This document shows positions 5,745-37,473 of a DNA stretch of 64,000 bases, in pieces. The translations under genes and the position numbers were made by a program. Position 1 is the first letter of the stretch, and each line of letters begins with the position of its first letter. The notes beneath the pieces are model-generated. The model searched no databases and was not told where the DNA came from. It saw nothing but the letters and a program-made list of their open reading frames with translations. The DNA comes from an uncultured delta proteobacterium (GTDB lineage Bacteria; Desulfobacterota; Binatia; UBA9968): contig CAVUVW010000017.1 of NCBI GenBank assembly GCA_963745035.1, forward strand, positions 1-64,000. Reading direction: 5' to 3'.

Positions 5745-5950
5745 GACGCTAAGAATAGCGGAGACAACGCCGTTTTGCCTGTGAATAGCGGGATTCGAAT
5801 TGTCAGACGGGATTCTATTCGATTTTAGGTGGGATTTCTGGACCGAGCAAAGTAATGGCAAAGCTAAGAAATTCTTCTTTGTTTTCTGGTGGTTAGAGGT
5901 GCTACGAGAATTGATAATCCTCGTGTCGGGTGGGTTCGGTTTTCCTCCCG
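5725..5950 (+). repeat. ~220-bp degenerate direct repeat, copy 1 (element end with tRNA-Phe-like tail)
   Basis: Aligns by eye with 8926-9148 (CCCTGCCATGA...ATAGCGGAGACAACGC...TTTTGCCTGTGAATAGCG...TTCTTCTTTGTTTTCTG...GCTACGAGAATT). TGATAATCCTCGTGTCGG at 5912 matches the tRNA-Phe fragment at 17 of 18 positions. Confidence 0.9.
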
Positions 5951-6202
5951 TGGTGCGGTGGGCTATATGCGTTGGCGGTGGCCACTGACAAACACCAGTC
6001 AATCTGAGAAAGCTCAAAGAAAACAAGGCTGGTAGGCCCGCACGCCCATTCTTATGGTTCAGCCGGGTTGGTGTGGAAATATTCTAATACCGGGACAGTC
6101 GAAGCCTTGCCGCTCCCTCTTTCTCTGAAACGGTGATCAATATTTTGGCGGATTTTACAGTTCTGAGGTTGCGAGAACTAATAGCCTCATATCTTTGCCC
6201 AA

Positions 6203-7864
6203 TTACCTAGGGACGTCGACCCGATGCAACTTATTAACTCGGCGAGTTGGCTCTTCTTGTCTCATTAGTTCCAAAGTACCTCTATTAAGCTTAGCGTTTG
6301 GTAAATCGCGTTTGCTGGCCCAGCCTGATAGCGCCTTCTGTGTTCTCGCACCCGCTTTGCCGTCTGCCGATCCTGGGTCGAAGCCTGCGGTCCTTAAAAG
6401 CCGCTGCATCTCGGCAATTTCAGTTGCTGTAAGAGGCGACTGAGTTAATGCATCCGGCGACATTCTTGCTGCAGCGGAGTTTTCCTCTTCGGGAGTTGCG
6501 ATGCTTCGCTGAGTTTGCAAAAAATTGGTGAAGTCTGCGACTGCGGATAACGGCGACTTCAACCCCACTATTAGCAAATAGGCAATAACTGTTAGGCCAA
6601 GATAGAACGAGACGGGCGTTTGCCAGTCTAACGGTGGCGGCGTAAGCTTCTCAGGTAAATTCAGCTCGGGCCATTCGTCAGCAGTGGGCGGCGCGATGCC
6701 GTCGACCTCAGTCTCCGAGTCAGTCAAAGATTCTTTGTATTGTCGCACGGCTTCGCCGAAGGCAATGCCCGCGTCAGCATTGCTTACCATCCATGCTTCA
6801 TTGAGACCTTCTCCTCCAAAAAAGATTTGGCCGTATTGGACCATCGGTATAGTCGGGTTATTGGAGAAGCGCCGATCAGCGTTGCCGTCTTTATTAACGT
6901 ACTGCCATGTATTCCCGACAATTTGAGCATCCGACGGCACATCACCGTCATAGACGATAAACCGCGTACTTGACGTAGTAATTTGAATTTTCCGAATGTC
7001 CAGCAATGCGAATCGGTCCGCGACCCGCGCAGCAACAAAAGCAGGGTACAGCAGAAGATCAGCCCCATTGGCGTTCTTAAAGTGAGGCGGTTTGAACTCG
7101 GTCGTCAGCACTGAATCATCGCTCCTCCCAAGCCTAACTAATCGCATGTCCAGTAACTGACTTGCAGCACTTCGTGTTCGGTATCTGTCCACGCCCTGAG
7201 CAGATGTAATATCCCAGATCCGGGTACAACGGCTTACGCCATCAAACGCGTTAGCGACGGCGATAAACGCTTGTTTAGATTCCTCGCTAATGCCGAATTC
7301 GACATTTAAGACAAGCGACTCCTTTATCTCTCTAAGAACATCTAAACGTCCCGAACATTCTTCGGCATACTCTCGCCGTGCAGCAACGGTCGCGGGTGCG
7401 ATCCATCGGCTAAGCCACGCAAGTCGTTTAGCCCTGCGTTCGGCCCTAAATGCCTCTCGCTCAGCTTCTGTGATTTGACCTTCAACAGTTTTACGTTGGC
7501 GTTGTAGTTTTTCGACCAAATTACTAACGCGTTCCAGTGATCCGCTTCCTAGTGAGGCTGCATCTACGCTTTGGAATTGAATAACGTCCATCAGACCAGT
7601 AGTAAGTGGTCTATCTTGGACGTCCGGTTCGGCATACCATCGAGGCTCAGGCGGCGCTGTTTGTCGAGGCACGGATTCGGGTCTGTCAAGCCTTGTGCGA
7701 TAGCTTAGACCTGTACCGGGTAGGCCTAAATTGAGGTGAGTCCCGCTAGGACCGAAGTTAACTGTGGCACCGCGTGGGCCGACCGTTGCCGAAATACCAC
7801 GCAGGCCGAAGTTGATTCTCAGCCCTGGTAGTATTTTGATTGACTGGCGAAACCGAAGCCCCAT
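6203..7864 (-). CDS. DUF4236 protein with TM segment and C-terminal peptidoglycan-binding domain
   Basis: MGLRFRQSIKILPGLRINF...GLPGTGLSYR; WQYVNKDGNADRRFSNN; C-terminal QRLLRTAGFDPGSADGKAGARTQKAL. Confidence 0.85.
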   Translation of the reverse strand: MGLRFRQSIKILPGLRINFGLRGISATVGPRGATVNFGPSGTHLNLGLPGTGLSYRTRLDRPESVPRQTAPPEPRWYAEPDVQDRPLTTGLMDVIQFQSVDAASLGSGSLERVSNLVEKLQRQRKTVEGQITEAEREAFRAERRAKRLAWLSRWIAPATVAARREYAEECSGRLDVLREIKESLVLNVEFGISEESKQAFIAVANAFDGVSRCTRIWDITSAQGVDRYRTRSAASQLLDMRLVRLGRSDDSVLTTEFKPPHFKNANGADLLLYPAFVAARVADRFALLDIRKIQITTSSTRFIVYDGDVPSDAQIVGNTWQYVNKDGNADRRFSNNPTIPMVQYGQIFFGGEGLNEAWMVSNADAGIAFGEAVRQYKESLTDSETEVDGIAPPTADEWPELNLPEKLTPPPLDWQTPVSFYLGLTVIAYLLIVGLKSPLSAVADFTNFLQTQRSIATPEEENSAAARMSPDALTQSPLTATEIAEMQRLLRTAGFDPGSADGKAGARTQKALSGWASKRDLPNAKLNRGTLELMRQEEPTRRVNKLHRVDVPR

Positions 7865-8029
7865 TGACCCTTGCGACTCCCTCTCGGCCCGAATTCGCAA
7901 TCAGGACTTACGATTGCAGTCCAGCCTGAGTGTTAGGCACCGCATACGTAGCGAAGTTTCGAAGAGGTGTCAACAAATTCATAGGTGCGGCCCATGACAG
8001 CGTCTTGAGGTGTGCACTGCGGGACAAGA

Positions 8030-8830
8030 CTATTCGGAGGACTTCTTCTCAAGCAACTGTCGAATCGCGACTAATTCTTGCCGGAGACTCTCCCGCTCAT
8101 TCTCGCCTTTCTTAGCTTCAGGTTCTAGAAACCAGGCGGCGACAAAACCTGAGAAAGTGCCAAATAAGCCAACCCCCGCGGTCATCAATAACCCAGCAAT
8201 TAGTCGTCCTTCTGTCGAAAGTGGCACTTTGTCTCCGTATCCCACCGTAGTGATCGTTACGAAAGCCCACCAGAGAGCATCTTCGGGTGTCTTGATGTTT
8301 GCATCGACAGTAGTTTCAAACTGGAGAATCGCAATACTTGAAAAGACAACCAGCAAAATTGAGATTAACGCCGCAGCTAGAAATGTGCCCTCGGATCGAC
8401 GGTCGAGGATAAAAGATATGATGAGTTTAGTTGCTCGAACACCTCTTAACACGCGAAAGATCCGCACAATACGAGCCGCCCGACCCCATCGTAGCGCATC
8501 GACCATAGGAATACTGGAGGCGAGGTCTATCCAGCCCCACGTCGAGAAATATTTCCATTTGTTCGGAGCACAAAAAAAACTCATCAAGAAATCCAAGAAG
8601 AACAGTGCACAAACAAGATTATCAGCAATATCGAGTATCCATCGAGTTGCTTGATCGGTAGAGAAAAAAGACTCTGCAGCGAGAACCCCCAACGCGTACA
8701 GGCACAGTACCAACATGAAAAATTGATAGGGCCAAGATTTGGGCGAAGATTCAGCCCTTTTAGACAGAATTTGCATATCCGAAATTTTCGTTGCCGACAG
8801 ATCAACCCCTGTGTTTTTATCTATGGCCAT
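8030..8830 (-). CDS. Voltage-gated-type potassium channel / ion transporter
   Basis: TVGYGD selectivity filter, S4-like RIVRIFRVLR; probable start MAIDK with RBS GGAGG. Confidence 0.92.
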   Translation of the reverse strand: MAIDKNTGVDLSATKISDMQILSKRAESSPKSWPYQFFMLVLCLYALGVLAAESFFSTDQATRWILDIADNLVCALFFLDFLMSFFCAPNKWKYFSTWGWIDLASSIPMVDALRWGRAARIVRIFRVLRGVRATKLIISFILDRRSEGTFLAAALISILLVVFSSIAILQFETTVDANIKTPEDALWWAFVTITTVGYGDKVPLSTEGRLIAGLLMTAGVGLFGTFSGFVAAWFLEPEAKKGENERESLRQELVAIRQLLEKKSSE

Positions 8831-8925
8831 ACTGCCTCCTGCAATAGATCCATCGTATTCTAGCGGATGCCTAAGTGCCCATAGCTCAGATGTAATCTTG
8901 TAATCTCTCTCACTCAAGGCCGGAT

Positions 8926-9148
8926 TTGCCGCGTGTCCCTGCCATGAGCACAAGGATAGCGGAGACAACGCTATTTTGCCTGTGAATAGCGCGATTCGAT
9001 TGTCAGACGAGATTCTATTCGATTCTGGATGGGATTTCGGACCGACAAAGTACTGGCACAGTCAGAAAATTCTTCTTTGTTTTCTGCTGGTTAGAGGCGC
9101 TACGAGAATTAGAAGTCCTCCTGTCGGGTAGATTCCATTTCTCCCTGC
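8926..9148 (+). repeat. ~220-bp degenerate direct repeat, copy 2
   Basis: Aligns with 5725-5950; includes a shorter MAGTRGK start on the minus strand and a more decayed tRNA-Phe-like tail. Confidence 0.9.
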
Positions 9149-9773
9149 CCTGCGGTCGTCATAAGCGTGCTCAACGCGAGGGCAAACACGTTTATCTGGC
9201 GTTGTCGAAAGTAGAAACCAATTTTTCGCTGGATTTGACTGGTTGTTGCTTTTCGATAGGCGCAGGGTCGCCAGCACACAACAGCTCCTTGAATACTGAG
9301 CTTATTAATCCCGCTGCTTGCTGCACTCTAAACGCTCTCAGGCAAGGCACGAATTGAGCCGTCATTCTCCAAGAGCCGCAGGCCCCAAACGACGTCCTGA
9401 GCAGTCGTGCGATTGCCTAGACATACAAAGTCAAAGGCAAAAGTGAGATCTCTCGCACCTCTGACCACGAACCAATGGTCAGTCGCTTGAGAGAAAGCTC
9501 TTTGCGGAACATACATTGACCCGATTCCTATAACTGGCGCAACCAAAGTTCTTTTCAATTTCACTCGCAGTCCTGCTTTATACCAATACTGCAACTCAAC
9601 AAGTCGCTGCTCCGTTTTCGATAGATTGTTGGGACTCGCTGCGCAAGACGCGACCAATCGAATTGGCTTCCCGTGCCGAAAAATTCTTTCAAACCTTCCA
9701 AAAAACATACAGTATTCCCTGGCATAATTGTCGCGTCCGGGGCCTGGTCTTCGCTTTGGACAGGAGGACCGAA

Positions 9774-11865: not shown

Positions 11866-12026
11866 GGAGAAAACATGCCCTTTGGGTTTTGGACAGCAAC
11901 GACCCGCCGCCTGATATTGGAGAATCGTCAACTGATGAGGGGTGAATCGGTCTTGGATTTTGGTTCCCGTTTCTCGGCCCGTCCGAATTTGACACCACTA
12001 TCGGACGAATAGTGGTCCCACCCGCC

Positions 12027-12130
12027 AAACTCAGCATGAGTTCTGGCCCGCTGCCGGTGCTACTGACATTGTGGGGCAAAGAGCCGTTCTCCCGGCGTGG
12101 CGGGTTCTTTTAGGAACGGGTTGATTGTCC
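12027..12130 (+). repeat. Dispersed repeat family, copy A (full length)
   Basis: AAACTCAGCATGAGTTCTGGCCCGCTGCCGGTGCTACTGACATTGTGGGGCAAAGAGCCGTTCT...AGGAACGGGTTGATTGTCC. Confidence 0.9.
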
Positions 12131-12301
12131 AAGACGGCGCGCGTCGGAATGAGGTTCTCTGGTTTCGACGCGCTGTTCGCGCTAGCGCGAAACGAGAATC
12201 CACAATCCTCGTGCCGTATTTGTTCGCTTGCCCTACAGGCCGGCTGGGTAAGCCCGGTGTACCGGGCAACGCGAGAGAAGTGATCGAGAATGCCCGTCGC
12301 T

Positions 12302-19106: not shown

Positions 19107-19165
19107 TTGTGGGGCAAAGAGCCTTTCTACCGGCGGGCGGTGTGATCAGGAACGGGTGATTGTCC
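19107..19165 (+). repeat. Dispersed repeat family, copy C (3' portion)
   Basis: TTGTGGGGCAAAGAGCCTTTCTACCGGCGGGCGG...AGGAACGGGTGATTGTCC matches the 3' half of copy A. Confidence 0.85.
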
Positions 19166-19190
19166 CTACAGCTAACGCGTAGAACAAGCC

Positions 19191-19450
19191 CACTTTGTCA
19201 CAACTTTGCCAGAACCATTTGCTCGAATCGGTTTGAATCGGTAAATTGAGCCTGCCAGACCCGCTTTAAACGCTTGGATTCATGCACATGGTGCCCAATG
19301 GTGTCACATAGTCCCGCACCAGTCGCAGGACTGAAAATCCTCGTGTCGGCGGTTCGATTCCGTCCCTGGCCACCATTTTTCCTCTGTAAAATCAACCGCT
19401 GAAACTCTGGTCGCTCGCAAAACTCGGCTTCACTTTGCCATTACTTTGCT
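19191..19450 (+). mobile_element. attP-like site of a tRNA-Phe-targeting tyrosine-integrase element
   Basis: Paired arm-type repeats ACTTTGTCA-CA-ACTTTGCCA (19192) and ACTTTGCCA-TT-ACTTTGCT (19432) flank the tRNA-Phe fragment; the integrase stop lies in the right arm. Confidence 0.65.
19327..19375 (+). tRNA. 3' fragment of tRNA-Phe(GAA); att core, not a complete tRNA
   Basis: AGGACTGAAAATCCTCGTGTCGGCGGTTCGATTCCGTCCCTGGCCACCA: anticodon arm, T arm, CCA; no D arm or 5' acceptor strand. Confidence 0.9.
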
Positions 19451-19603
19451 TGTTCTGTTGTGGTTTGATCAGCAGCGTGAAATTTGTCGAGCTTGCTCGC
19501 TGATTCCCTCATCGACCATTCATCAGAAATCGCATACCGGCGATAAATTGCCTCGGTCTTGAGGCCGATCATCTTCATAGCGTCGCTCCGAGAAACACCG
19601 GCA
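19441..19603 (-). pseudogene. C-terminal remnant of a tyrosine recombinase
   Basis: AGVSRSDAMKMIGLKTEAIYRRYAI matches the G(H)KT....RRY catalytic-Tyr box with His changed to Leu. Confidence 0.8.
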
Positions 19604-19608
19604 CGTTC

Positions 19609-20025
19609 GTGCGAGAGAGAGCGACTAAGCATGGCATCACGTTGGACGTTAAAGTCGACGAGCGGCTTGTGGATTTCGTCGGCGATGAGCGCAAGATCAA
19701 GCAGATCCTGCTCAACCTGCTCTCTAATGCCGTCAAGTTCACTCCTGAGGGTAGACGGGTCGGAATCGATGCCAGACAAACAGACGGCGGGGTGGAGATT
19801 TCGGTCAGCGATACAGGGATCGGCATTGCACCGGAGGAACCGCCGAAGATATTTGAAGAATTTAGGCAGGTGGGAGCGGACTACGCTCACAAAAATGAAG
19901 GGACTGGGCTTGGATTAACATTGGCAAAAAAATTCGTGGAGCTGCATGGCGGGAGGATTTGGCTGGAGAGCGCGATGGGCAAAGGTTCAACGTTTACGTT
20001 CTTCCTACCCCACCAGTCTCACTGA
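19609..20025 (+). pseudogene. HATPase-only fragment of a sensor histidine kinase
   Basis: QILLNLLSNAVKFT, VSDTGIGI, GTGLGL; no HisKA or sensor; abuts the integrase remnant. Confidence 0.8.
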
Positions 20026-20440: not shown

Positions 20441-22156
20441 TCATTGAAATGCTTGCCTTTTGTTGTGCAGTGGAGCCGAGAGTCTTACCCCGGTTTGGAA
20501 TCGCACTCTAGAGGCCGTGGGTTCGACTCCCATCAGCTCCACCATTTGATACAGTGTAAAGAACTCCTCTTTTTGAGGGGTTTTGCTCTTGGAAAGAGGA
20601 GTTCTCACTGTCATCGGCAGCTTGTAAGTCAGCGTCACTTCACTCCCCCGCACCCTCACTTCCTTCAGAATCTCTCTCAGAAATTCTTTCTTATAGCCGA
20701 TCTTTTTCTGTCGAAGCCGTAGCTGTATCTTGGTGATATAGTCGTCCATCAAACGCGTCGGGATTGGCAGAAGTTTCGCTCGGCTCGACGTCTTCTTCTG
20801 TAGATCCGCCTTGCGGCGCAGAAGATCCTCACGCTGACGACGAAGGTCTTTGATCCGGCCAGCGCATTCCTCGAGCGATAGAAGTCCCTTTTCCAGTGTC
20901 TCCTCCCAGCGCCGAATCTTGGCTTCGATGTCGTTGATGGCAAGCGCGACAGCCGTCTCTTCAGCGGTTTGTTCCTGCGGTTTGGACTCTCGCGCTCCGT
21001 CGATCAGGAGGTCGAGGTATTTGCGCACATTCTCTTTGGTAAGGATTTGCTCCTGTATCTGATCCAGGACTGCCTCTTCAAATTTACCCTTGTTGAGGAG
21101 CGGTGCATTGCACTCTTTACGACCTCGTCGAAGGTATGTGCTGCACGAATAGTAGTGGTGCTGGCCCGATTTGGCAGCGGTGCCCAAATAGTGATGACCG
21201 CAGAAGTCACATACAACAAGCCGACTCAACAGGTATTCCGTGCGATGGGCAAAGGGATTTTGAAATTTCTCCTTTTCGGTTTTGAGTCTTTCCTGGACCC
21301 GCTCAAAGAGGCTCTGGTCGATGATCGGCGGATAAAATCCCGGGACAGTGACCGGCTCTCGTTCGCCCCGACCCTGGTACCGGTTGTAGTCTAAAACGCC
21401 GATATAGGCCCGGTTTCGCAGCGTCCGCGATACGAACGTGACCCGGAATGTGCGGCCCTTGTTGGTGCGGTGCCCTTCGCTATTGAGCGTCATGGCGATG
21501 GATTTGTAGCCTTTGCCCCTGTCGTAGAGCTCAAAGATGCGCTGAACCACCGGGGCCGTCTTTTCATCGATTACCGCACGGCTGACAATCCGGGTTCGCT
21601 TATGGCCTTCCTGCCGATCAATGATCTCCTTCCGGTAACCATAGGGCGGACCGAATACCAAGTGACCTTGAAGGGCACGCTGCTTTAGCCCCTTCATGAT
21701 CTCCCGCGACAGATTTCGGGAGTAAAACTCAGCCATACCGACCAGCAGATGCTCCATGAAGAAGTCTTCGGGCGTATTAGAGCCGACCATCGGTTCGGTG
21801 ACCGAGACCAGTCTGACATGCTCGCGCTTGAGAATTGCCCGGGCGGTAGAGGATTCAACGGTATCGCGAAACAGGCGGTCGAGTTTATGGACGATGACGA
21901 TCTGAAAGCCGCGCCCCTTATTCACCGCGTCGCCCAGTAATTCTTTCAGAACCTCGCGCTTTTCAAGATTTCGGAAGGCTGATTGACCTTCCTCGACATA
22001 TTCTTTGGCAACGGTGTATCCATGCTTCTCCGCCCATTCTCTGCAGGCCCGGAGCTGTGCCTGGATCGAATACCCCTGGACCTGCTCTTCGGATGAGACC
22101 CGCGCATAAATGGCGGCGGCATTTGGCTGCTGTTGCTTAGCGGTGTTCATGTTCAT
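20441..22156 (-). CDS. Large serine recombinase (resolvase-recombinase-Zn ribbon) reading through its att site
   Basis: IYARVSSEEQ, KLDRLFR, PYGY, CDFCG...YYSC; C-terminal MVELMGVEPTAS is the antisense of tRNA-Ala. Confidence 0.95.
   Translation of the reverse strand: MNMNTAKQQQPNAAAIYARVSSEEQVQGYSIQAQLRACREWAEKHGYTVAKEYVEEGQSAFRNLEKREVLKELLGDAVNKGRGFQIVIVHKLDRLFRDTVESSTARAILKREHVRLVSVTEPMVGSNTPEDFFMEHLLVGMAEFYSRNLSREIMKGLKQRALQGHLVFGPPYGYRKEIIDRQEGHKRTRIVSRAVIDEKTAPVVQRIFELYDRGKGYKSIAMTLNSEGHRTNKGRTFRVTFVSRTLRNRAYIGVLDYNRYQGRGEREPVTVPGFYPPIIDQSLFERVQERLKTEKEKFQNPFAHRTEYLLSRLVVCDFCGHHYLGTAAKSGQHHYYSCSTYLRRGRKECNAPLLNKGKFEEAVLDQIQEQILTKENVRKYLDLLIDGARESKPQEQTAEETAVALAINDIEAKIRRWEETLEKGLLSLEECAGRIKDLRRQREDLLRRKADLQKKTSSRAKLLPIPTRLMDDYITKIQLRLRQKKIGYKKEFLREILKEVRVRGSEVTLTYKLPMTVRTPLSKSKTPQKEEFFTLYQMVELMGVEPTASRVRFQTGVRLSAPLHNKRQAFQ
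20498..20544 (+). tRNA. 3' fragment of tRNA-Ala(CGC); att core
   Basis: GAATCGCACTCTAGAGGCCGTGGGTTCGACTCCCATCAGCTCCACCA; no canonical D arm upstream. Confidence 0.85.
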
Positions 22157-24318
22157 GCTGCCTTTGGGGGTGTCGTTATCGCGGTTCTGGTATTGGTCCG
22201 CTTGCGCTGGAGCTTGTTGAGATCGGCCCAGCGCTTTCTTATATCACGAGCCGTCCACGGCTGTTTGTCTCTGCGCCGAATTCCTTTCGCATTGAACTCA
22301 ACGGCCATCTCTCTGTAATTGAGACCTCGAGAACGGGCTTCTGCTATTGCTTGGCGGTGAAGCTCTTCAAGGCGGAGTGGCTTTTCCCCCTGTGCCCTTA
22401 ATAGATTATGAACCATTTCGTAGGTCCACGGTTTTCCTGAATCGCTTTTAAAATCTTGTGCATTGAACTGCTCGGCAATCGCCTCCAGCGATTGACCATC
22501 GCGGTTCATCGTGAGTGCTTTCTGCCGCAGCCCGATGTAGGTTGCTGAAAAGCGGATGGGCCTGAGCCCGAGCTTGCGCAAGATCATGTAGAGCCTCCCG
22601 ATCGTGATATTCACAACCTGGCCGTTCGACGTTTTACCAGCTGCTAGATGCTCCTGAATCTCAAAAACCGTGAGTCCCTGTTGATGGAGTTCACGAACGA
22701 GATTGTAACGACCCTTATCACGCCAAAGAAGGATCGAGGTGGTCTGGCCTGATTTCCAGTAGATGGTCGCGGCGATCCTCTCCTTGGTCGCACTGACAAC
22801 GACACGATCGATTAAACAGCGCAAGATCTCCTTCCGCTCCTGGTGGGTGACTAGGGGATGATGCCAGATGGCAGGAACGTCGGCGGCAAGACCGCAGAGC
22901 TCTTCCAACTCGCTTGCTGCCTTATCGAAATCCGGGGCGAGCTTTTCGCGCGCGATCTTGTCTTCGAAATCCGCTTTTTCTTCAAGCACCTTCTCGAGTT
23001 TTTGCAGGGCATCGAGATGCACACGCTGAAGACTGCCACGTGTTAAATCCGCCCGTTCCCGGGCACGTCGTTCTTCATGACCGAGTCGTTCTCGTTCAGA
23101 CTGAATCCAGTTTTGGTGGGATATCTGTTTAGCTCTGGACTCCTCCAACGCGGCCTTCAGCATCTCAAGAGGCGGTGTCTTGAGCACTTTGAAAACCTCG
23201 ATCAGGACGTAGCTGTCGAACTCATAGCTGACGAACCGAGTGCACGGGTTGCTCTTCCAACCGCAGCCGTAGCTGTAGCTCTTCCCGCGGTGATAATTGA
23301 CGCTGAGGAACTTTTCACATTTAGGGCACCGGAGTAAGCCTTGCGTGAGGGCCGGGCCGCGGCCCGGCCGGCCGCGTCGAACAAAATGATTGTCTTTTAA
23401 GATTCGCTTGATCTCCTCCTGCTCGTCCGCTGTCATGTAAGCTGGGTGATGATTGGGGAATCTCAGCCAGCGGTGCTCGGGAACTTTGACCCTCGCCGAC
23501 TGACCGGATGCTTGAACCGGACCGGCGAGGGACGCAGTTTTTCCGTAGATGTAAGTTCCGGCGTAGGCCGGATGGATCAGAATCCGTCTCACGTTATCGA
23601 GAGTAGGCTCGACGAATTTCAGGTATGTGCCTTGCCTGGACGGAATCTTGATGCCAGCATGGCCCATGGCCTTTACCACTTTCCGGATGGAGCGTTCCCG
23701 CCAGAAGCACGCGATGATCTCATAGATCGAGTCTTTCACGGCGGGGTCATAGTCGAATTTGCCGTCGGGCCCTTTGATCCAGCCGACTGGGAGCGTAGAT
23801 ACCACAGCGCCCTGACGGGCTTTGGCCATTCTGGCGTTACTCATGTGCTGCGCACGTTTTTTGTTTTCGTACTGTGCGATGCTCGCAGTGATCTGCGTGA
23901 GCACCGTGTCGTTGGGATCGCCGGGATCGCTAAAATGACTATCCAAACACAAAAGGGTTCCGTGATAGGAGGCGAGCACGCGCAGCTCCTCGATCGGCCC
24001 CATCTGTCGACCGAGCCGAGAAACATTGGCGGCAAACACGGCTCCAACGGCATTCGAGGCAATCCCCTCCATCAATCGTTGCCATCCGGTCCTCCGATCG
24101 AGGGTCGAGCCGCTCTTTCCGAGATCGTCGTCGATGACATCAATGCGATCAGCCGGCCACCCATAGTCCCGAGCCAGATCGATCTGCGATCGTTGAAAGG
24201 CTTGGCTTCCGGTGTTCTTTTCGACTTGTTCCAGGCTACTCTGCCGCACATAAACGATCGCCTTTCGGCTCAAGTGTTCCGGCGTGATCAGGGAGTGTGT
24301 CAGGGTGGGGTTTGACAT
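22153..24318 (-). CDS. Second large serine recombinase with extended C-terminus
   Basis: AIVYVRQSS, NVSRLGR, LPVGW, HPAYAGTY, LRCPKC Zn ribbon; stop overlaps the downstream recombinase start (ATGA). Confidence 0.93.
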   Translation of the reverse strand: MSNPTLTHSLITPEHLSRKAIVYVRQSSLEQVEKNTGSQAFQRSQIDLARDYGWPADRIDVIDDDLGKSGSTLDRRTGWQRLMEGIASNAVGAVFAANVSRLGRQMGPIEELRVLASYHGTLLCLDSHFSDPGDPNDTVLTQITASIAQYENKKRAQHMSNARMAKARQGAVVSTLPVGWIKGPDGKFDYDPAVKDSIYEIIACFWRERSIRKVVKAMGHAGIKIPSRQGTYLKFVEPTLDNVRRILIHPAYAGTYIYGKTASLAGPVQASGQSARVKVPEHRWLRFPNHHPAYMTADEQEEIKRILKDNHFVRRGRPGRGPALTQGLLRCPKCEKFLSVNYHRGKSYSYGCGWKSNPCTRFVSYEFDSYVLIEVFKVLKTPPLEMLKAALEESRAKQISHQNWIQSERERLGHEERRARERADLTRGSLQRVHLDALQKLEKVLEEKADFEDKIAREKLAPDFDKAASELEELCGLAADVPAIWHHPLVTHQERKEILRCLIDRVVVSATKERIAATIYWKSGQTTSILLWRDKGRYNLVRELHQQGLTVFEIQEHLAAGKTSNGQVVNITIGRLYMILRKLGLRPIRFSATYIGLRQKALTMNRDGQSLEAIAEQFNAQDFKSDSGKPWTYEMVHNLLRAQGEKPLRLEELHRQAIAEARSRGLNYREMAVEFNAKGIRRRDKQPWTARDIRKRWADLNKLQRKRTNTRTAITTPPKAA

Positions 24319-29364: not shown

Positions 29365-29373
29365 TCACCTATC

Positions 29374-30405: not shown

Positions 30406-30465
30406 CTAAATCGATGCTGTGCAGGTATCGGAGACCCACCGATGAGTTAAAAAACGGACACCGGC

Positions 30466-30494: not shown

Positions 30495-30536
30495 TCAAAT
30501 CGAAGAATGATTGACCTGGAAAGGAGGAACTGAACC

Positions 30537-30992
30537 ATGTTTGGTGAATTAACGAGATGGAGCCCAGTCGATGAATTGTCGAGCTGGCATCGAGATATCG
30601 ACGATCTGTTTGGGCGCTTTTTTGGACGCCCCGAGTCACCTTCTACTTCACTCAACTGGGTCCCCCGGGTAGAAACCTATCGGAAGGAAAACGACTACGT
30701 CATTAAGGTAGATCTCCCCGGTGTCGACCCAAAGGACGTTAATGTCCAGGCGGAAGGAAATTTACTGACGATCACGGGGGAACGAAAGGCTGAAGAGAAC
30801 GGGCCCGAATATCGGGAAACTTTCTACGGCAAGTTTGAACGCCAGCTTGCGCTTCCCCAAGGCGTAGAGGCTGAAAAGATTGCCGCTCGCTATGAGCACG
30901 GTGTTCTTGAGGTCCGGGTGCCGCTTCCCGCACAGCTTGTTGGAAGGAGCATCCCGATTCAGATCGAGCACAACAATAGCAAAAAAGCTTGA
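30537..30992 (+). CDS. Hsp20/alpha-crystallin small heat-shock protein
   Basis: VDLPGV, LTITGER, YGKFER, ARYEHGVLEV. Confidence 0.95.
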   Translation: MFGELTRWSPVDELSSWHRDIDDLFGRFFGRPESPSTSLNWVPRVETYRKENDYVIKVDLPGVDPKDVNVQAEGNLLTITGERKAEENGPEYRETFYGKFERQLALPQGVEAEKIAARYEHGVLEVRVPLPAQLVGRSIPIQIEHNNSKKA

Positions 30993-31050
30993 ATCAAAAG
31001 CGGCGTAAATTACGCCAGTCTTATAAACCGCCCATCTGCGGCGGTTTCAG

Positions 31051-31079
31051 AAAGGGTCCCCGATGGGACCCTTTTTTTT
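31051..31079 (+). terminator. Rho-independent terminator
   Basis: AAAGGGTCCC-CGAT-GGGACCCTTT followed by a T-run. Confidence 0.85.
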
Positions 31080-31188
31080 GGCTATGTGATTCCTCGCCAC
31101 TTGCCATTTTAGACTTCCGACTTATATTTCTTTTGCTCGCGCCAACGGCGCAAAAACATCGCGTTTTTTCATAGGAGAATTGTAAGTA

Positions 31189-32407: not shown

Positions 32408-32683
32408 TTAGGCTAAAGGAGGAATTGTATGAGCGAACTAAATAGTGATTTGAATCAGAACAATTTGAAACTACAAATCGCAGATCAAGCGAACAGTCCT
32501 GTCTCTGATCCAAAAGAAAAGCTAAGCCTCGAAACATTCAAGAACGACTCAGACTGGAATGTGACTCCGGCTGAACTCTACGGGTGCCTTTGTCATACTA
32601 GAGCATGAAGATAATTGCCCGTGTCGACATTTTGATCGAAATCCAGGAAATCGGAACAGAAATATTACAGGAGGTAACTAAAT

Positions 32684-33142
32684 ATGGCTGAGTGGCATCC
32701 CTTCGAAGATTTGGCAAGTCTTCGACAAGAAATTGATCGGGCTTTTGAAGGTTTCGGCGTCGCACAAGACCCCTTGCGTCACGTTGCCTTCCTTCCAGGA
32801 AGGGGGCCGAGACGATATCCGCTAATCAATTTGCTCGAGGACAAGGACAATATCTACATCGAGGCGCTGACACCGGGAGTAAATCCGAAGTCGCTGGATA
32901 TTAGCGTTACACATAACCGGCTCACTTTGGCCGGGGAGAAAACCCGCATTGCCGAGGATGTGAAACCGGAAGCTTTTCACAGAAGCGAGAGAGCGAGCGG
33001 AAAATTCGTCAGGATCGTCGATCTGCCCCTGGAGGTCGAGGGGGGAGAAATAGAAGCAGAATACAAGAATGGTCTACTATTCGTAACGATACCAAAGGCG
33101 GAAAAAGCTAAACCAAGACAAATCAATGTAAAAATCGCCTAA
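32684..33142 (+). CDS. Hsp20 small heat-shock protein
   Basis: YPLINL, FHRSERASGKF, AEYKNGLL..IPKAE. Confidence 0.93.
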   Translation: MAEWHPFEDLASLRQEIDRAFEGFGVAQDPLRHVAFLPGRGPRRYPLINLLEDKDNIYIEALTPGVNPKSLDISVTHNRLTLAGEKTRIAEDVKPEAFHRSERASGKFVRIVDLPLEVEGGEIEAEYKNGLLFVTIPKAEKAKPRQINVKIA

Positions 33143-33173
33143 AACAATCTGCGCAAGAAGGAGGACAGGAGCG

Positions 33174-33572
33174 ATGGCAGAAAGAACTATAGCGACTCGC
33201 TCGCAAAAATCGATCAACCCGGGCAGAGAAGAGACGCGTAGCCAAGAGCAATACATAACGCCGCCGGTTGATATCTATGAGACCCAGAACGGACTGGTGG
33301 TGAAAGCGGATCTGCCGGGAGTTTCCAAGAACAGCATGGATGTACGCGTGGAAAACAACCTGTTGACTATACGCGCAAATGCGGCTCACATCGCACCCGG
33401 TGATACAGTCTATCGCGAATACGCGCTGGTCAATTTCTTCCGACAGTTCGAATTGAACGAAAGAGTGGATCAGTCAAAAATCTCGGCTGAGCTCAATCAC
33501 GGCGTGTTGACTCTAAATCTACCCAAAGCGGAAGAGACGAAACCAAGAAAGATTGATGTGAAAGTAGCTTAG
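33174..33572 (+). CDS. Hsp20 small heat-shock protein
   Basis: PPVDIYET, ADLPGV, AELNHGVLTLNLPKAE. Confidence 0.93.
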   Translation: MAERTIATRSQKSINPGREETRSQEQYITPPVDIYETQNGLVVKADLPGVSKNSMDVRVENNLLTIRANAAHIAPGDTVYREYALVNFFRQFELNERVDQSKISAELNHGVLTLNLPKAEETKPRKIDVKVA

Positions 33573-33766
33573 TCATTCGATGATCTCAGATAATCTCAAT
33601 GGTCCGAGTATGGCGCAGAGAATGGGATTGCGAACTTTGTCATGCCCAGCCGGGACTGGGGGAGTGGATTTGCAAAACGCCGCACCCCAGTCTGCGGCCG
33701 GTACTAACGATGGCAATTTCAGGACGCACGGATCGATGACTAGGAAGTCATTTGCGGACGTAGAGT

Positions 33767-34042
33767 TCAGATTAAATTAAACGCTTTTGCCATGCCTTCG
33801 CGAACACTAAACGTTTCGTTCGGGCCTTCTATCGGCGAATACTTAGCGCCTTCAACCGCAACGTTTTCTGGGATTTCTGCCCAAAACAGCAAATATCCAA
33901 CCCAATATTCTCTATAGGCATCCGGCGGGTTCGCTAGCCAGATTACGGGGTGCACATCTTTTAGAATGACGTTGGAAACAGTTTTAACCAGCGCGTCCGG
34001 TTTTGATCGACTTTCAAACGTTACGAAATAATAATTGCTCAT
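33767..34042 (-). CDS. Hypothetical protein
   Basis: 91-aa ORF with plausible RBS (AGGGG) and natural composition. Confidence 0.5.
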   Translation of the reverse strand: MSNYYFVTFESRSKPDALVKTVSNVILKDVHPVIWLANPPDAYREYWVGYLLFWAEIPENVAVEGAKYSPIEGPNETFSVREGMAKAFNLI

Positions 34043-34392
34043 GAATCGCCCCTGCCCAATAACGCAGTTTCAACTCGCGCCAGTCAGTTTTCAACTATCG
34101 GATTCAATCACCATCACAGGCCAATAGGTGTCTACCTCGTAGACATGCCAAATTTGAGTCTGTTCGTGAAATTTGGCTTTCAATTCGTCGTCCGCGTGAA
34201 AAACCCCTCCGCCATCCAAAGTTTACCGAAAGGAGCGAGACGTACTCCTACCCCGCCGGTACCTCCTGAATCTGGCACTCTCAGCTTACTCGAATTAATC
34301 CGATCACAATTTACTATCTCGCAACTCAGTTCTACGATGAGTTCTTTTTGGGCAGCTCAGCGCTTTAGTGTGATCTGCCGGAACGTCACGGA

Positions 34393-34993
34393 TTACCTAC
34401 GCCTCTTCTCTCCGGAAACAACCAGACGTTTTCGACGTGACGCGCCCTGGCGTGCAGCGCGTCTACCCGGTGATCGCGTCGGCTGTCTGGATCTGACTTT
34501 TGGACTTCGCTCGATTTTTGTAGGCTTCAACGCGCGCACAGGGGCTTCTTCGGCCGGTGCCTCGGTGCTCAAGTCATCCATCATCTCCTGTAAGATCTTC
34601 ATGAGAAGCCGCCGCTGCGCTTTTTCGCTGGCGCTCCAAGTGTCCTTTCCAGCGCGTTTGTGTGCGAGTTTATACTTGAGTCCGGTGAGGGCCGTACTAT
34701 AGGTATTCTCGTCGAGCTTCCGGACGTTTTGATGCGCAAGAATGTACCAGTGGTATTCGGTCCCGACGGGAACACCGAACCCCGGCGGTGCGTGACCCGC
34801 ACGCCGTTTCGGGACGGCGTAACTGAATTCCCACCGGTCCGGCGCAACCTTTTTTCTCCTTCCACTCACCCTTCTAGTAATACCACTTGTGTCGACCTCC
34901 GACTCTCATGCCCGTGTATTTTTTCCCCTCGAAAACTTTGAAGGCATTGTACGTCTTCGCCGCATCTTCTTCTAAGATTTGTTTCTTGTTCAT
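34393..34993 (-). pseudogene. Conserved hypothetical protein disrupted by a stop and a frameshift
   Basis: YNAFKVFEGKKYTGMRVGGRHKWYY*KGEWKEK/KVAPDRWEF...GTEYHWYILAHQNVRKLD. Confidence 0.7.
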
Positions 34994-35063
34994 GGTGCAA
35001 CTCCCTTTGACTCCTGCTTCTGAGCGAGACTGGAATGACTGTTCCAGGCCGATACAGCGCGAG

Positions 35064-35387
35064 TCACGCCGCCCGATTGTGCATCCGATCTGCCTTCGTG
35101 GTTTCGCACAACTCACGTCGCACGTACTGCGGATCGAGCCCGAGCCGGACGCATACGGTATCGAATGAGAATACCCAGCTCTCACCCTCCTGCATGATCC
35201 ACTCTTCCGCTTCACGAAATCGTCTCTTGCCATATGCATCGCGTGCCCGATTGAATTTTCGGTACTCCATAATCGCGTCCTCCAGCACCGCAGCAAGGAG
35301 CGATTTCTCAGGTTCGAGGTGCTCGCTACGGCGAAACGTGTCCAAATACCCTTCGACCAGTGATACATCGCCGCTTATGTTGGTCAT
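35064..35387 (-). CDS. Conserved small hypothetical protein (EPEKxLLxAVLEDA...FSFxxVCxxLGLDP)
   Basis: RBS AAGGAGG; sigma54 promoter upstream. Confidence 0.75.
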   Translation of the reverse strand: MTNISGDVSLVEGYLDTFRRSEHLEPEKSLLAAVLEDAIMEYRKFNRARDAYGKRRFREAEEWIMQEGESWVFSFDTVCVRLGLDPQYVRRELCETTKADRMHNRAA

Positions 35388-35437
35388 TGTACTGTCCTCC
35401 TTCCTACGTTTTTGGCATAGCTTCCTTTTAAAAATCC

Positions 35438-35453
35438 GCAAATCTGGTGCCAG
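35438..35453 (-). promoter_or_regulatory. sigma54 (-24/-12) promoter
   Basis: Minus strand CTGGCAC-CAGAT-TTGC, a consensus match. Confidence 0.75.
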
Positions 35454-35593
35454 ACATCGGGGTATTCATATTTTAGTTTCTTATCGGCTAAGCACGGAAT
35501 TTTTCTTTGGTTAGCCTTAGGAAAAGATATGCCATCCTGTGAACGACGTGAGCAAAGGGTCGTGGAAAATCTCCCCTAGCCTTGGTGTTCACT

Positions 35594-36415
35594 TCAAACC
35601 GGTTTGATTGGCATGATTGGCCAAGCAAGGACTTCCTGGTATCGAGCAAAATGGCAAAGCGGTTTGGTATCAGTCAATTTCAGTCCCAAAGCTGCGCTCA
35701 TCGTATTTCTACGCAGGTCGACTTCCGCGCGCTGAAGTGGCCATGGGAGATGGTGAATTTCGCCGGAAACGATTTGATCTGCTTTCAGTCCTCCGTAGAG
35801 AGCATATCTTTCAGTCAGCCAGTGATCGAGCGTCCCCAGTGCTGAAAAATACTCCGGTGAAGTGGGGCTATACTTCGCATAAAACTCTGCGGACGGAGCA
35901 TTTTTATGAGTGCGGACGCTTTCGTAGTCGACCACATCCGCCTGAATTTTTTGAATGGTCATCCGGGCGTCGTAATACGGTAAACCGAACCAACGAGCCA
36001 CCCTGACAGAAAGCCAACTTGCTGCATCGAGACTAAAGAACCAAACACCGGGCTTATCCCTAAATTTTACATATGTGCGTACGTTCAGTTCGGGAAACGC
36101 CAAAGATATCGGAATGTAACGTGGTCGCACGCCGCTCATGTAAAACGGGACCACGCCAATCCAAGCCGAGCCGTCAAAGATATCAATTTCCAATGCGTCG
36201 GGAATGAGAGATCGTACCAAATCAACTGGAACGGGCCAGTGTGCGAAGAGCAGATCGTGCCAGCGCATGGAAAGTACCCACGGGCTTTTTGGAAGAGGCC
36301 AAGGGCGATGCTTTGTTTGGGCAGTTATCCCTGAAGTAGTTGTCGAACATCCGATCGCGACCGCGTTCAGCATGGCGGACGAGCCGAGTGTCAAAAATCG
36401 ACGTCTGGTCACCAT
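35594..36415 (-). CDS. DUF2071 (YqjF) family protein with a Tat/lipoprotein-like leader
   Basis: MRWHDLLFAHWPV, FPELNVRTYV, GVWFFSLDA, WLTERY; N-terminus TRRRFL...AIGC. Confidence 0.88.
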   Translation of the reverse strand: MVTRRRFLTLGSSAMLNAVAIGCSTTTSGITAQTKHRPWPLPKSPWVLSMRWHDLLFAHWPVPVDLVRSLIPDALEIDIFDGSAWIGVVPFYMSGVRPRYIPISLAFPELNVRTYVKFRDKPGVWFFSLDAASWLSVRVARWFGLPYYDARMTIQKIQADVVDYESVRTHKNAPSAEFYAKYSPTSPEYFSALGTLDHWLTERYALYGGLKADQIVSGEIHHLPWPLQRAEVDLRRNTMSAALGLKLTDTKPLCHFARYQEVLAWPIMPIKPV

Positions 36416-37102
36416 TACTGCTGCTTAATTCGCAGTCCGGTCAGCACGCTCTACTAACAGGATAACATAGGCTTTATACTCCGCCGATTGTGCAGAAAGG
36501 ACCTGCCCTTCGGTGTGCCCTGCTATTCTAAAATGACCTCCGGAGACAGCGCCGGTCCAGAGTTCCAGATGCGAACCGCTATTTCTTCTTCGATTTCTTG
36601 CGCGGCACCTTTCCGCCCACAGCGTGAGCATCAGTCTCCGACAGCAAACTCAATTTTATTCACGATCGGCCAAACCGCACGCCGTCCCGCCGAACTGGGA
36701 AGTGGCGAACGCGACAATTTTCCGCAACGCGGGCTTACCATCCCGGCTGCATAACGGCGACCCTAGTTCGTAATCCATTTTTCGTAATCCATTTCATGAC
36801 GATCATGAAATACTTGGCGGACCGATGCATGATCACTAAAGCGGGGCATTTTGGGGGCATTAAAGTTAACTGAACAAGAAGGATCAAGTAAATTGCGGGA
36901 TATTCGTCCCCCACGCCTCCCCTGCCCGTCCCGGCGACGGCCGCGACATTCTCGGCGAGGCCTTCGATCGAGCCGAGATTTGTTTCTACATTGTTTCCAC
37001 GGCAACTGAACCTAACCATAAAAATAGCGCGCGCCCAGTTCAATTCTTCTGCTTTTTCACATCTTTTCCTGGCTCAGGCGGTATGGGAACGGATTGCTGT
37101 TT

Positions 37103-37148
37103 TTCGTAATCAGTAGGTCGCCGGTTCGACTCCGGCGCGGCGGTTTCA
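37103..37148 (+). tRNA. Degenerate 3' fragment of tRNA-Thr(CGT)
   Basis: TTCGTAATCAGTAGGTCGCCGGTTCGACTCCGGC...; no 5' half; acceptor end decayed. Confidence 0.75.
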
Positions 37149-37429
37149 CATCTTCGATGACTCCGAATCATATCCATGATTCCCATCGGAACGATGGGAA
37201 GAGGTTTACACGAGGCAATTCTGTTCCCCTCCATCTGGCAGCAAGCACGGTGAATCGGCACCTGTCGCTTCCAGTTTTAACACGCCGATATGCACAGTTT
37301 GCACTGTCCGGTTTTTGACAGGTCGTTCGTTGAAAATAGTGAAAGATTGGTGAAAACTGGATATACGGGATTGCTGGAAAATTGCAGAGTTAGACCGTTC
37401 GTGAATGATGCTTAAAGAGTAACGCAGAA

Positions 37430-37473
37430 CTCTCACGTCGGGAACACGGGTTCGATTCCCGTTGGGACCACCA
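37430..37473 (+). tRNA. 3' fragment of tRNA-Glu(CTC); probable attR/right island boundary
   Basis: CTCTCACGTCGGGAACACGGGTTCGATTCCCGTTGGGACCACCA begins exactly at the anticodon loop. Confidence 0.85.

What the first reader, a model, noticed from the sequence alone, without database searches (positions are those of the whole stretch)
5912..37473. Six co-oriented tRNA 3'-half att sites of four isotypes in one island
Seen: Phe-like (5912, ~9110), Phe-GAA (19327), Ala-CGC (20498), Thr-CGT (37103) and Glu-CTC (37430), all on +, each starting at or near the anticodon arm. I found no complete tRNA in the window. Known: tRNA-targeting elements carry the 3' half in attP and leave it at attR, and tandem islands normally repeat one isotype. 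Inference: elements with different target specificities have been stacked into one composite. It may carry several attP/recombinase modules and so reach alternative tRNA targets. The shared orientation suggests non-random assembly.
Basis: partly seen in the sequence, partly recalled or inferred. Interest (0 to 1): 0.75.

Follow-up and report, generated by a model that had tools for sequence, protein, structure and literature searches.

The report
Recombination scars in a patchwork genomic island
The tRNA pieces are real, but they are leftover junction scars from several different integrating elements that piled up and were reshuffled in one decaying genomic island, not a set of working docking sites.

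Summary
Four pieces are 100% identical to this genome's own tRNAs: Phe 49 nt, Ala-CGC 47 nt, Thr-CGT 35 nt, Glu-CTC 44 nt. All lie on + and the window holds no whole tRNA. The two "Phe-like" pieces are degenerate ends of a dispersed repeat, and I found a further one at about 12194.

The Glu piece is the attR of an island at tRNA-Glu-CTC, and a relative shows the empty site. The Thr piece is an old relic inside that element family's arm, conserved in another species. The Ala piece is not an attP. Its last 8 nt plus flank form the attL of a pair of large serine recombinases that cross over at the CCA end of tRNA-Ala. Its left edge, at tRNA position 30, matches the attR expected of a tyrosine-integrase element whose attL lies on contig C15. 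The Phe pieces are ends of a tRNA-Phe accretion array without integrases.

Partner sites sit at three other tRNA loci on other contigs. The island is therefore a mosaic made by accretion plus exchange between islands, or less likely by mis-assembly. The window holds no recognisable tyrosine integrase, only a 60-residue remnant. Composite islands are a known kind of structure. Interest is modest.

The parts
5619..5960 (+). Repeat family A, copy 1. It comprises the start of a truncated minus-strand gene (5598-5745), about 190 nt of non-coding sequence, and a degenerate Phe-like end (about 5905-5960). I read it as a right-end scar of a Phe-targeting element family.
   Evidence: The same end lies 1.1 kb downstream of tRNA-Phe in relative G015.
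8918..9160 (+). Repeat family A, copy 2 (non-coding part only), with a degenerate Phe-like end (about 9103-9160).
11978..12230 (+).
19107..19326 (+). Repeat families B (19107-19167) and D (19192-19326). This arm-like sequence runs straight into the Phe anticodon arm, here and in 3 other genomic copies.
19327..19375 (+). Exact 3' part of tRNA-Phe-GAA (positions 28-76). It is the distal end of the Phe array.
19376..19890 (-). Flank 93% identical to the flank of the real tRNA-Phe on C14 (19327-19609). ORF 19441-19890 is a fusion. Residues 90-149 are a tyrosine-integrase C-terminal remnant and residues 2-100 belong to an unrelated ~137-aa protein family.
   Evidence: The same flank lies near tRNA-Phe in G038.
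20498..20547 (+). 3' part of tRNA-Ala-CGC (positions 30-76) plus TTT. It forms a 50-nt perfect direct repeat with the real tRNA-Ala-CGC on C15 and is read as the attR of a tyrosine-integrase element.
   Evidence: A 355-aa tyrosine integrase lies next to the tRNA on C15.
20537..20564 (+). attL core and element-side arm of the serine-recombinase element. It consists of the tRNA's last 8 nt, a 6-nt spacer and a 14-nt arm whose inverted copy lies at C25:190452.
20441..22156 (-). Large serine recombinase 1 (571 aa). Its 3' end reads antisense through the Ala piece.
22153..24318 (-). Large serine recombinase 2 (721 aa). It is conserved as a pair with recombinase 1 next to tRNA-Ala-CGC in genome G043.
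37095..37429 (+). Element-side arm of Glu-targeting elements. It contains the Thr-CGT-like relic (37103-37147).
37430..37473 (+). 3' part of tRNA-Glu-CTC (positions 32-75). It is the attR and right border of the island.
37663..38502 (+). N-acetylmuramidase gene, the first gene of the conserved chromosome backbone. It lies directly after tRNA-Glu in the empty site of a relative.

Best explanation
Window 1-37473 is the distal part of a decaying patchwork island. Its tRNA pieces are junction scars left by at least four site-specific recombination systems. None is a working docking site for its own tRNA half.

(1) Glu. An element integrated at tRNA-Glu-CTC. The intact tRNA with a broken tyrosine integrase is on contig C27, and the displaced 3' part at 37430-37473 is the attR that abuts the ancestral chromosome.

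(2) Thr. The Thr-like piece is an old relic carried in the arm of this Glu-targeting element family.

(3) Ala. A pair of large serine recombinases integrated first, at the CCA end of tRNA-Ala-CGC. A tyrosine-integrase element then integrated at the anticodon loop of the same tRNA. That pushed tRNA positions 30-76 plus the serine-recombinase genes away from the tRNA. The Ala piece is thus both the attR of the later element and the host side of the earlier element's attL.

(4) Phe. The exact Phe piece plus three degenerate Phe-like ends are the remains of a tandem accretion array made at a tRNA-Phe gene. The array consists of integrase-less cassettes.

The partner sites lie at the tRNA-Ala, tRNA-Glu and tRNA-Phe loci on other contigs. 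These segments were therefore brought together by recombination between islands, or by transfer of an already composite element. That last step is inferred, not shown.
For: Glu.
- In relative G006 (L009), tRNA-Gln and tRNA-Glu-CTC are followed 140 nt later by the homologue of the muramidase at 37663.
- C27:6565-9990 is 76-78% identical over about 3.4 kb to the upstream flank in 4 of 4 relatives' loci that hold the full tRNA pair.
- Conservation with 30 relatives begins right after 37473.
- The integrase on C27 is split over two frames of 99 aa each.

Thr.
- The whole 37095-37473 module is 82% identical to C15:361774-362168, where a truncated integrase follows it.
- The module is also present before the same backbone in G014. 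The Thr-like part is conserved but variously decayed in all three copies.

Ala.
- The recombinase-1 3' end overlaps the 3' half of a complete tRNA-Ala in 5 of 5 distinct foreign loci where that end is present: G038:C14, G038:C15, G037:C54 (the same place as L044), L041 and L042.
- A 14-nt arm beside the Ala piece occurs 4 times in the genome, against about 0.06 expected by my arithmetic.
- At C25:190443-190472 the inverted arm is followed by the tRNA's last 8 nt and then by the terminator that follows tRNA-Ala-CGC in empty-site relatives. This is the attR.
- In 7 of 8 relatives' loci the flank after tRNA-Ala-CGC is C25:190375 downward.
- An uninterrupted attP with both arms lies at a contig end in G006, and an attR lies in G014.
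- The 50-nt perfect repeat with C15 tRNA-Ala-CGC, beside a 355-aa integrase, is the only other copy in the assembly.

Phe.
- The exact piece continues for 234 nt at 93% identity into the flank of the real tRNA-Phe, including an integrase remnant. That flank also lies near tRNA-Phe in G038.
- Family A ends occur 4 times in the C14 tRNA-Phe island and 1.1 kb after tRNA-Phe in G015.
Against: - The four contig ends involved (C15:1, C17:1, C25 end, C27:1) do not abut. Genes are cut at three of them, and the missing N-terminal part of one is nowhere in the assembly. No attL-attR pair is therefore shown to lie on one molecule.
- GC skew is -0.03 for C17(+) and for the reverse of C27, but +0.03 for the reverses of C15 and C25. 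A single inversion joining C15 to C17 would create a skew break. This favours a more complex exchange or a transferred composite.
- The left flank of the Ala piece (20001-20497) has no homologue in 30 relatives. Its identity as the arm of the C15 integrase element rests only on the repeat.
- In G043, which holds the full-length recombinase pair, I found no attR arm within 62 kb.
- Public contigs do not bridge any of the tRNA pieces.
- The Phe-like ends are too decayed to prove how they arose.
Confidence: 0.7

Rival explanations
1. This is one mobile element that carries several working attP/recombinase modules and can choose among tRNA-Phe, -Ala, -Thr and -Glu as targets.
For: - Two apparently intact serine recombinases lie beside the Ala piece.
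- An intact 355-aa tyrosine integrase lies at the partner site on C15.
- Orphan attP-like modules do exist elsewhere in this genome, at C15:361774-362887 and C13:61986.
Against: - No PF00589 match lies in the window.
- The Phe and Glu integrases are remnants.
- The Ala piece is host tRNA sequence in an attL/attR configuration. The family's true attP carries no tRNA half.
- The Thr piece has a non-matching acceptor strand and is a conserved relic.
- None of the 50 window ORFs scanned with Pfam matched a conjugation or packaging family. Phage-related matches are a Mom family protein at 2845-3534 and PHROG families of unknown function for the 6203-7900 protein.
Confidence: 0.06
2. This is an assembly artefact. 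Contig C17 is a chimera of several islands, joined at tRNA pieces or other repeats during metagenome assembly.
For: - The genome looks like a metagenome bin: 28 contigs, completeness 92.6, contamination 5.8.
- Four contig ends fall in islands.
- The att partners lie on other contigs.
- Repeats of 300-400 nt shared with other islands lie at 25.7-30.4 kb.
Against: - The tRNA pieces are only 35-50 nt long.
- Several junctions are seen independently. Family D running into the Phe arm occurs in 3 other loci. Phe piece plus flank occurs on C14. tRNA-Ala end plus recombinase arm and genes occurs in 5 foreign loci. The Thr-spacer-Glu module plus backbone occurs in G014.
- None of the shared repeats points to C25, C27 or C15.
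Confidence: 0.12
3. The scars were made in other genomes. A ready-made composite, holding the Phe array, the Ala junction and the serine-recombinase genes, arrived by horizontal transfer. A Glu-specific integrase then inserted it as one piece at tRNA-Glu-CTC, with no rearrangement in this genome.
For: - This keeps GC skew continuous (reverse of C27 into C17).
- The Phe flank is 93%, not 100%, identical to the resident tRNA-Phe flank. That fits an origin in a close relative.
- tRNA-Ala-CGC is identical in G038, so the 50-nt identity does not prove a local origin.
- Transfer of accreted composites is documented (passages in PMC5704250).
Against: - It leaves the resident tRNA-Ala locus with an attL (C15) and a serine-recombinase attR (C25) whose partners would be missing. 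The only matching partners in the assembly are in the window.
- No known pair of sites would excise a circle containing a tyrosine attR/serine attL junction.
Confidence: 0.25

Closest known systems
Tandem accretion of integrative elements and cis-mobilizable elements (CIMEs) at one tRNA or gene 3' end (passages read in the review PMC5704250)
   Same: Direct repeats of att-type ends delimit segments that have lost their integrase. New elements insert into the att site of residents. The tRNA-Ala gene here was hit twice, and the Phe array has four co-oriented ends.
   Different: Here scars for four tRNA isotypes lie in one stretch. The arrays are detached from their cognate tRNA genes. Two recombinase classes used different sublocations of the same tRNA.
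tRNA-targeting tyrosine-integrase genomic islands (Islander/TIGER type; Williams 2002 and Hudson 2015 seen only as entries in the reference list of PMC12884075; details recalled)
   Same: A 44-50 nt direct repeat of the tRNA 3' part starts in the anticodon arm. The integrase is convergent with the intact tRNA. Relatives show empty sites.
   Different: attL and attR lie on different contigs, and the integrases for Glu and Phe are broken.
Serine integrases of streptococcal ICEs whose att site lies in the 3' end of the integrase gene (rumA-targeting group; passages read in PMC4701971)
   Same: The recombination site overlaps the 3' end of the serine recombinase gene, so integration changes the protein's C-terminal residues. 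Repeats are very short. Several serine recombinase genes lie side by side.
   Different: The target here is the CCA end of tRNA-Ala (and tRNA-Val), not a protein gene. There are two recombinase genes rather than one or three. No conjugation genes were seen.
Inversion between related integrated elements TKV2/TKV3 in Thermococcus kodakarensis, which gives chimeric att and integrase sets (passages read in PMC8371274)
   Same: Islands at different tRNA loci act as homology for exchange, producing att sites that no longer match their neighbouring tRNA.
   Different: It is archaeal and was shown directly in a population. Here the exchange is only inferred from att bookkeeping, and GC skew argues against one simple inversion.
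Tripartite ICEs of Mesorhizobium (only the abstract of PMC5882170 seen, in the listing)
   Same: One element is associated with several att sites of different specificity and several recombinases.
   Different: Those have three intact recombinases with directionality factors and conjugation genes, and they assemble in an ordered way. Here the integrases are mostly remnants and no conjugation genes were found.

Membership tests
tRNA-targeting tyrosine-integrase island | Direct repeat identical to the 3' part of the target tRNA | tested here: met
   Perfect matches of 44 nt (Glu), 50 nt (Ala) and 49 nt (Phe).
tRNA-targeting tyrosine-integrase island | Integrase gene beside the intact tRNA at the other end | tested here: met
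   C15:16563-17630 is 355 aa with PF00589. C27:5798-6366 and C14:97168-97302 hold remnants only.
tRNA-targeting tyrosine-integrase island | Empty site in related genomes | tested here: met
   Glu: G006, locus L009. Ala: 7 of 8 relatives' loci go from the tRNA to the C25 flank within 0.5-2.3 kb.
tRNA-targeting tyrosine-integrase island | attL and attR on one molecule in direct orientation | not testable with these tools
   The partners are on contigs C15, C27 and C14. The contig ends do not abut.
Large serine recombinase integrative element | Resolvase, Recombinase and zinc-ribbon domains, with an N-terminal serine motif | tested here: met
   One search shows all three domains for recombinase 1. 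For recombinase 2, Resolvase and Recombinase pass their cut-offs, while the zinc ribbon scores 17.6 bits, below the 25.3 cut-off. The N-termini read ...YARVSS... and ...YVRQSS.... The motif's meaning is recalled, not tested.
Large serine recombinase integrative element | About 50-bp attP with inverted arms around a short core | tested here: met
   The 14-nt arms lie in inverted orientation at window 20551 and C25:190452. Both arms lie on one uninterrupted site at G006:C192.
Large serine recombinase integrative element | attL and attR flank one contiguous element | tested here: inconclusive
   attL is in the window and attR is on C25. The window runs on to the tRNA-Glu flank instead.
Large serine recombinase integrative element | Recombination activity | not testable with these tools
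   This needs an experiment.
Tandem accretion array / CIME | Co-oriented att-type ends that delimit segments lacking an integrase | tested here: met
   Ends lie at about 5952, 9148, 12220 and 19375, all on +. No integrase lies between them.
Tandem accretion array / CIME | Array anchored on its cognate tRNA gene | tested here: not met
   The only tRNA-Phe is at C14:97449-97524.
   Ala piece: it is host tRNA sequence, and the family's attP has no tRNA half. Phe piece: only a 60-residue integrase remnant. Thr and Glu pieces: no integrase, and the right flank is backbone.
Multi-recombinase assembling ICE (tripartite type) | Several intact recombinases plus conjugation genes | tested here: not met
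   None of the 50 window ORFs scanned with Pfam matched a relaxase, coupling-protein or type IV secretion family. The tyrosine integrases are remnants.

The most novel reading that the evidence does not exclude
The att bookkeeping records a real exchange of distal segments between islands at tRNA-Ala, tRNA-Glu and tRNA-Phe in this soil bacterium. Islands at different tRNA genes would then act as portable homology that reshuffles island cargo, and perhaps chromosome order. A still-intact tRNA-CCA-end-targeting serine recombinase pair and a tyrosine integrase share one tRNA gene at two sublocations.
Probability: 0.35. Interest if true: 0.5.

Novelty: new member of a known kind. Interest (0 to 1): 0.35.

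Why it matters
Orphan tRNA halves inside islands can be read as a ledger. Pairing each scar with its partner site reconstructs the order of integrations and later exchanges between islands. The work also gives a concrete, testable set of sites for a serine recombinase family that docks at the CCA end of tRNA-Ala and tRNA-Val. These are a 14-nt inverted arm pair, an 8-nt shared core, and attL, attR and attP examples in several genomes. The case also warns against reading every tRNA half as an attP. Otherwise the region is an ordinary decaying mosaic island.

Tried and rejected
Reads. I found 20 public runs from 7 studies that hold part of 17601-24600. I laid contigs of four runs from four studies on 17601-37600. 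All were short assembled contigs at roughly 3-10x depth. The listed pieces stop at or inside the tRNA pieces, for example 19348-19658 and 20544-21358. The few joints had sides of only 20-53 nt on the shorter side, apart from two short skips (77 and 138 nt, sides 235 and 90). They neither support nor refute contiguity.

Joining contigs.
- I looked for genes cut at contig ends.
- C17:1 does not continue the cut gene at C15:1.
- The 659-aa ORF running off contig C22 is a NACHT/AAA protein, not the missing part of the C27 nuclease gene.
- The N-terminal 178 residues of the glucose-6-phosphate isomerase cut at the C25 end are absent from the assembly.
- A search for homologues of the C27:1-576 fragment in 5 relatives found nothing.

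Other dead ends.
- I looked for a second copy of the tRNA-Ala 3' part. G037 and G038 hold only the tRNA itself, at up to 3 mismatches to the G000-derived pattern. G043 and G044 gave no match at all to that pattern. G043 holds only the tRNA itself when searched with a 40-nt pattern from its own tRNA. No element-side arm lies within 62 kb of the recombinase pair in G043.
- The left flank of the Ala piece has no homologue in 30 relatives.
- I considered a single inversion between the tRNA-Ala and tRNA-Glu islands. GC skew makes it unlikely as the only event.
- I considered that the serine recombinase element carries the tRNA half in its attP. I rejected this once the attR on C25 and the intact attP in G006 were seen.
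- The 149-aa product of the family A gene gave no Pfam or PHROG match.

Literature. In some searches I saw no report of a large serine recombinase that targets a tRNA 3' end. I did not read the TIGER/Islander resource papers or any supplements, so I make no claim that this is unreported.

I did not use the look-up of encoding contigs because it is closed. I did not request supplements.

Unpublished genome. G005 is unpublished. One locus (L011) was fetched, and G005 rows appear in the tables. No claim in this report rests on it.

Full report
WHAT IS THERE.

The window is the first 64 kb of contig C17 in a 7.43 Mb, 28-contig genome with completeness 92.6 and contamination 5.8. Record titles of the closest public loci point to uncultured soil "delta proteobacterium"/Syntrophobacteraceae-type bins. 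ARAGORN and Rfam at gathering score find no tRNA in the window. GC content is 0.48-0.58 up to about 38 kb and 0.55-0.63 (mostly about 0.60) beyond 45 kb.

I predicted the genome's 47 tRNAs and blasted them against the genome. The window holds four perfect matches, all on +:
- Phe-GAA positions 28-76 at 19327-19375
- Ala-CGC positions 30-76 at 20498-20544
- Thr-CGT positions 32-66 at 37103-37137
- Glu-CTC positions 32-75 at 37430-37473

The cognate genes lie on other contigs: Phe at C14:97449, Ala-CGC at C15:17704, Thr-CGT at C14:771439 and Glu-CTC at C27:6565. The pieces at 5912 and 9110 are degenerate. I found a further one of the same type at about 12194. A permissive Rfam scan of 1-45000 gave tRNA-clan hits only at the Ala, Thr and Glu pieces, all on +.

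THE GLU PIECE IS THE ISLAND'S RIGHT BORDER.

DNA conservation with 30 relatives starts just after 37473. I fetched ten relatives' loci, and four hold the full tRNA-Gln/tRNA-Glu-CTC pair. In G006 (L009) the tRNA-Glu is followed 140 nt later by the homologue of the muramidase gene at 37663. The region upstream of the pair in all four loci is 76-78% identical over about 3.4 kb to C27:6565-9990. The ancestral order was therefore the C27 flank, tRNA-Gln, tRNA-Glu, then the C17 backbone from about 37474. The Glu piece is the displaced 3' part, the attR.

Next to the tRNA on C27 the tyrosine integrase survives only as two 99-aa frames. C27:1 cuts a nuclease gene whose remainder is not at C17:1, so sequence is missing between the two contigs.

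THE THR PIECE IS AN INHERITED RELIC.

The stretch 37095-37473 (Thr piece, about 290 nt, Glu piece) is a single module. It recurs at 82% identity at C15:361774-362168, followed there by a truncated 218-aa integrase. It recurs again before the same backbone in G014. The alignment shows the Thr-like part in all three copies, variously decayed. The anticodon is changed in C15 and the T loop in G014. The acceptor strand does not fit this host's tRNA-Thr. The piece is a fossil in the arm of Glu-targeting elements, not a separate event in this island.

THE ALA PIECE CARRIES TWO SUPERIMPOSED SCARS.

The only intact recombinases in the window are two large serine recombinases, at 20441-22156 and 22153-24318 on the minus strand. 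The first reads antisense through the Ala piece.

In 5 of 5 distinct foreign loci where that gene's 3' end is present, it overlaps the 3' half of a complete tRNA-Ala, either CGC or GGC. A remnant in this genome abuts tRNA-Val-CAC on C25. G043 shares both recombinase genes next to tRNA-Ala-CGC, at 70% identity over 4.1 kb.

Right after the tRNA end lies a 14-nt arm. It occurs four times in the genome, against about 0.06 expected by my arithmetic. At C25:190443-190472 its inverted copy is followed by the tRNA's last 8 nt and by the terminator that follows tRNA-Ala-CGC in relatives. In 7 of 8 relatives' loci the flank after tRNA-Ala-CGC is C25:190375 downward. That site is therefore the attR. A near-identical arm at C25:3353-3382 closes the tRNA-Val element. 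G006:C192 holds both arms on one uninterrupted site, an attP, and G014:C28 holds an attR.

This recombinase family thus crosses over at the CCA end and carries no tRNA half. The 47 nt in the window are host tRNA sequence on the attL. What cut them at position 30? The piece plus TTT is a 50-nt perfect repeat of the real tRNA-Ala-CGC on C15. Beside that tRNA sits a 355-aa tyrosine integrase. The simplest reading is that a tyrosine-integrase element later integrated at the anticodon loop and pushed positions 30-76 plus the serine recombinase genes away. This is an inference. The arm to the left of the piece has no homologue in relatives.

THE PHE PIECES ARE THE REMAINS OF AN ACCRETION ARRAY.

The exact piece is preceded by an arm-like repeat, family D, that runs into the Phe anticodon arm in three other loci. 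It is followed for 234 nt, at 93% identity, by the flank of the real tRNA-Phe. That flank includes the C-terminal 60 residues of a tyrosine integrase, now fused to an unrelated ORF. The same flank lies near tRNA-Phe in G038.

The degenerate ends at about 5952 and 9148 close copies of family A. The end at about 12220 has the same core but follows family B. Family A is conserved up to the Phe variable loop and diverges after it. Family A occurs four times in the C14 tRNA-Phe island and 1.1 kb downstream of tRNA-Phe in G015.

Between the ends lie ordinary cargo genes and no integrase. The cargo includes an ion channel, a sulfate permease, a two-component system and a haem peroxidase. This matches integrase-less cassettes in a tandem array, as reviewed in PMC5704250 (passages). 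The array is detached from tRNA-Phe.

HOW THE PIECES CAME TOGETHER.

The partners of the window's scars sit at three other loci: C15 and C25 for Ala, C27 for Glu and C14 for Phe. Yet C17 runs without a break from the Phe array through the Ala junction and the serine recombinase genes to the Glu attR. Several routes are possible: islands exchanged segments, a ready-made composite was imported, or C17 is chimeric.

GC skew is -0.03 for C17(+) and for the reverse of C27, and +0.03 for the reverses of C15 and C25. That argues against one simple inversion. It leaves a double exchange or an imported composite as the better options. Exchange between related integrated elements is documented in Thermococcus (passages in PMC8371274).

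The assembly gaps and the short public contigs do not let me decide.

COMPARISON AND VERDICT.

Each component is of a known kind:
- tyrosine-integrase islands at tRNA genes
- accretion arrays
- a serine recombinase whose site overlaps its own 3' end, as in streptococcal ICEs that target rumA (passages in PMC4701971)

The less usual features are scars of four isotypes in one stretch, and the double use of one tRNA-Ala gene by two recombinase classes at different sublocations. The idea of a multi-target element with several working attP modules is not supported. I rate the novelty as a new member of a known kind, with modest interest.

Noticed in passing
G000 contig C13:61930-62035 (outside the window): An uninterrupted two-armed site of the same serine recombinase family, with both 14-nt-type arms inverted around a short spacer. 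It looks like an intact attP inside the chromosome.
   Followed up: partly
G000 contig C15:361774-362887 (locus L035:9775-10888): A second copy of the Thr-like-plus-Glu module, followed by a truncated 218-aa tyrosine integrase. This attP-like arrangement lies 3.2 kb after tRNA-Leu-CAA, far from tRNA-Glu-CTC.
   Followed up: partly
G000 contig C13:540142-540320: An exact 46-nt 3' half of tRNA-Thr-CGT is followed directly by the last ~130 nt of repeat family A with its Phe-like end. This is another pair of co-oriented scars of different isotypes. Thr-like pieces also lie at C13:516077 and C13:1119895, although the tRNA-Thr-CGT gene is on C14.
   Followed up: partly
window 40962-42757 and 42892-44688: Two adjacent paralogous stretches, 68% identical over 1.8 kb. 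They encode an amino-acid permease/universal stress protein fusion and a shorter relative.
   Followed up: no
window 1324-1559: A ~230-nt repeat (family C) with at least 10 copies on 10 contigs at 69-88% identity. Its nature is unknown.
   Followed up: no
window 30537-33572: Three Hsp20 genes flank a glycosyltransferase gene in the island. Homologues of the 30.5 kb and 35.1-35.8 kb stretches lie in the tRNA-Ala-CGC island of relative G003 (L048).
   Followed up: partly
window 2845-3534 (-): A gene of the Mom protein family (PF25680, E 2e-47) in the island.
   Followed up: no
window 17521-19092 (+): A 523-aa protein with an animal haem peroxidase domain, inside the last cassette of the Phe array.
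   Followed up: no
G000 contig C1:1755-9512 versus C13:1938456-1952932: Contig C1 carries the same family A and family D copies as a stretch of C13, with shared flanks. It may be a diverged second copy or a strain variant of that island, which would fit the 5.8% contamination figure.
   Followed up: no
G000, genome-wide: Many tRNA genes have a nearby direct repeat. These are 3' parts for Gly-GCC, Leu-TAA, Cys, Met, Leu-CAG, Arg-TCG and Glu-TTC, and 5' parts for Leu-CAA, Ser-GGA, Ser-CGA and Ser-TGA. At least 12 further pieces are orphans away from their tRNA. The genome is unusually rich in integrated elements.
   Followed up: partly
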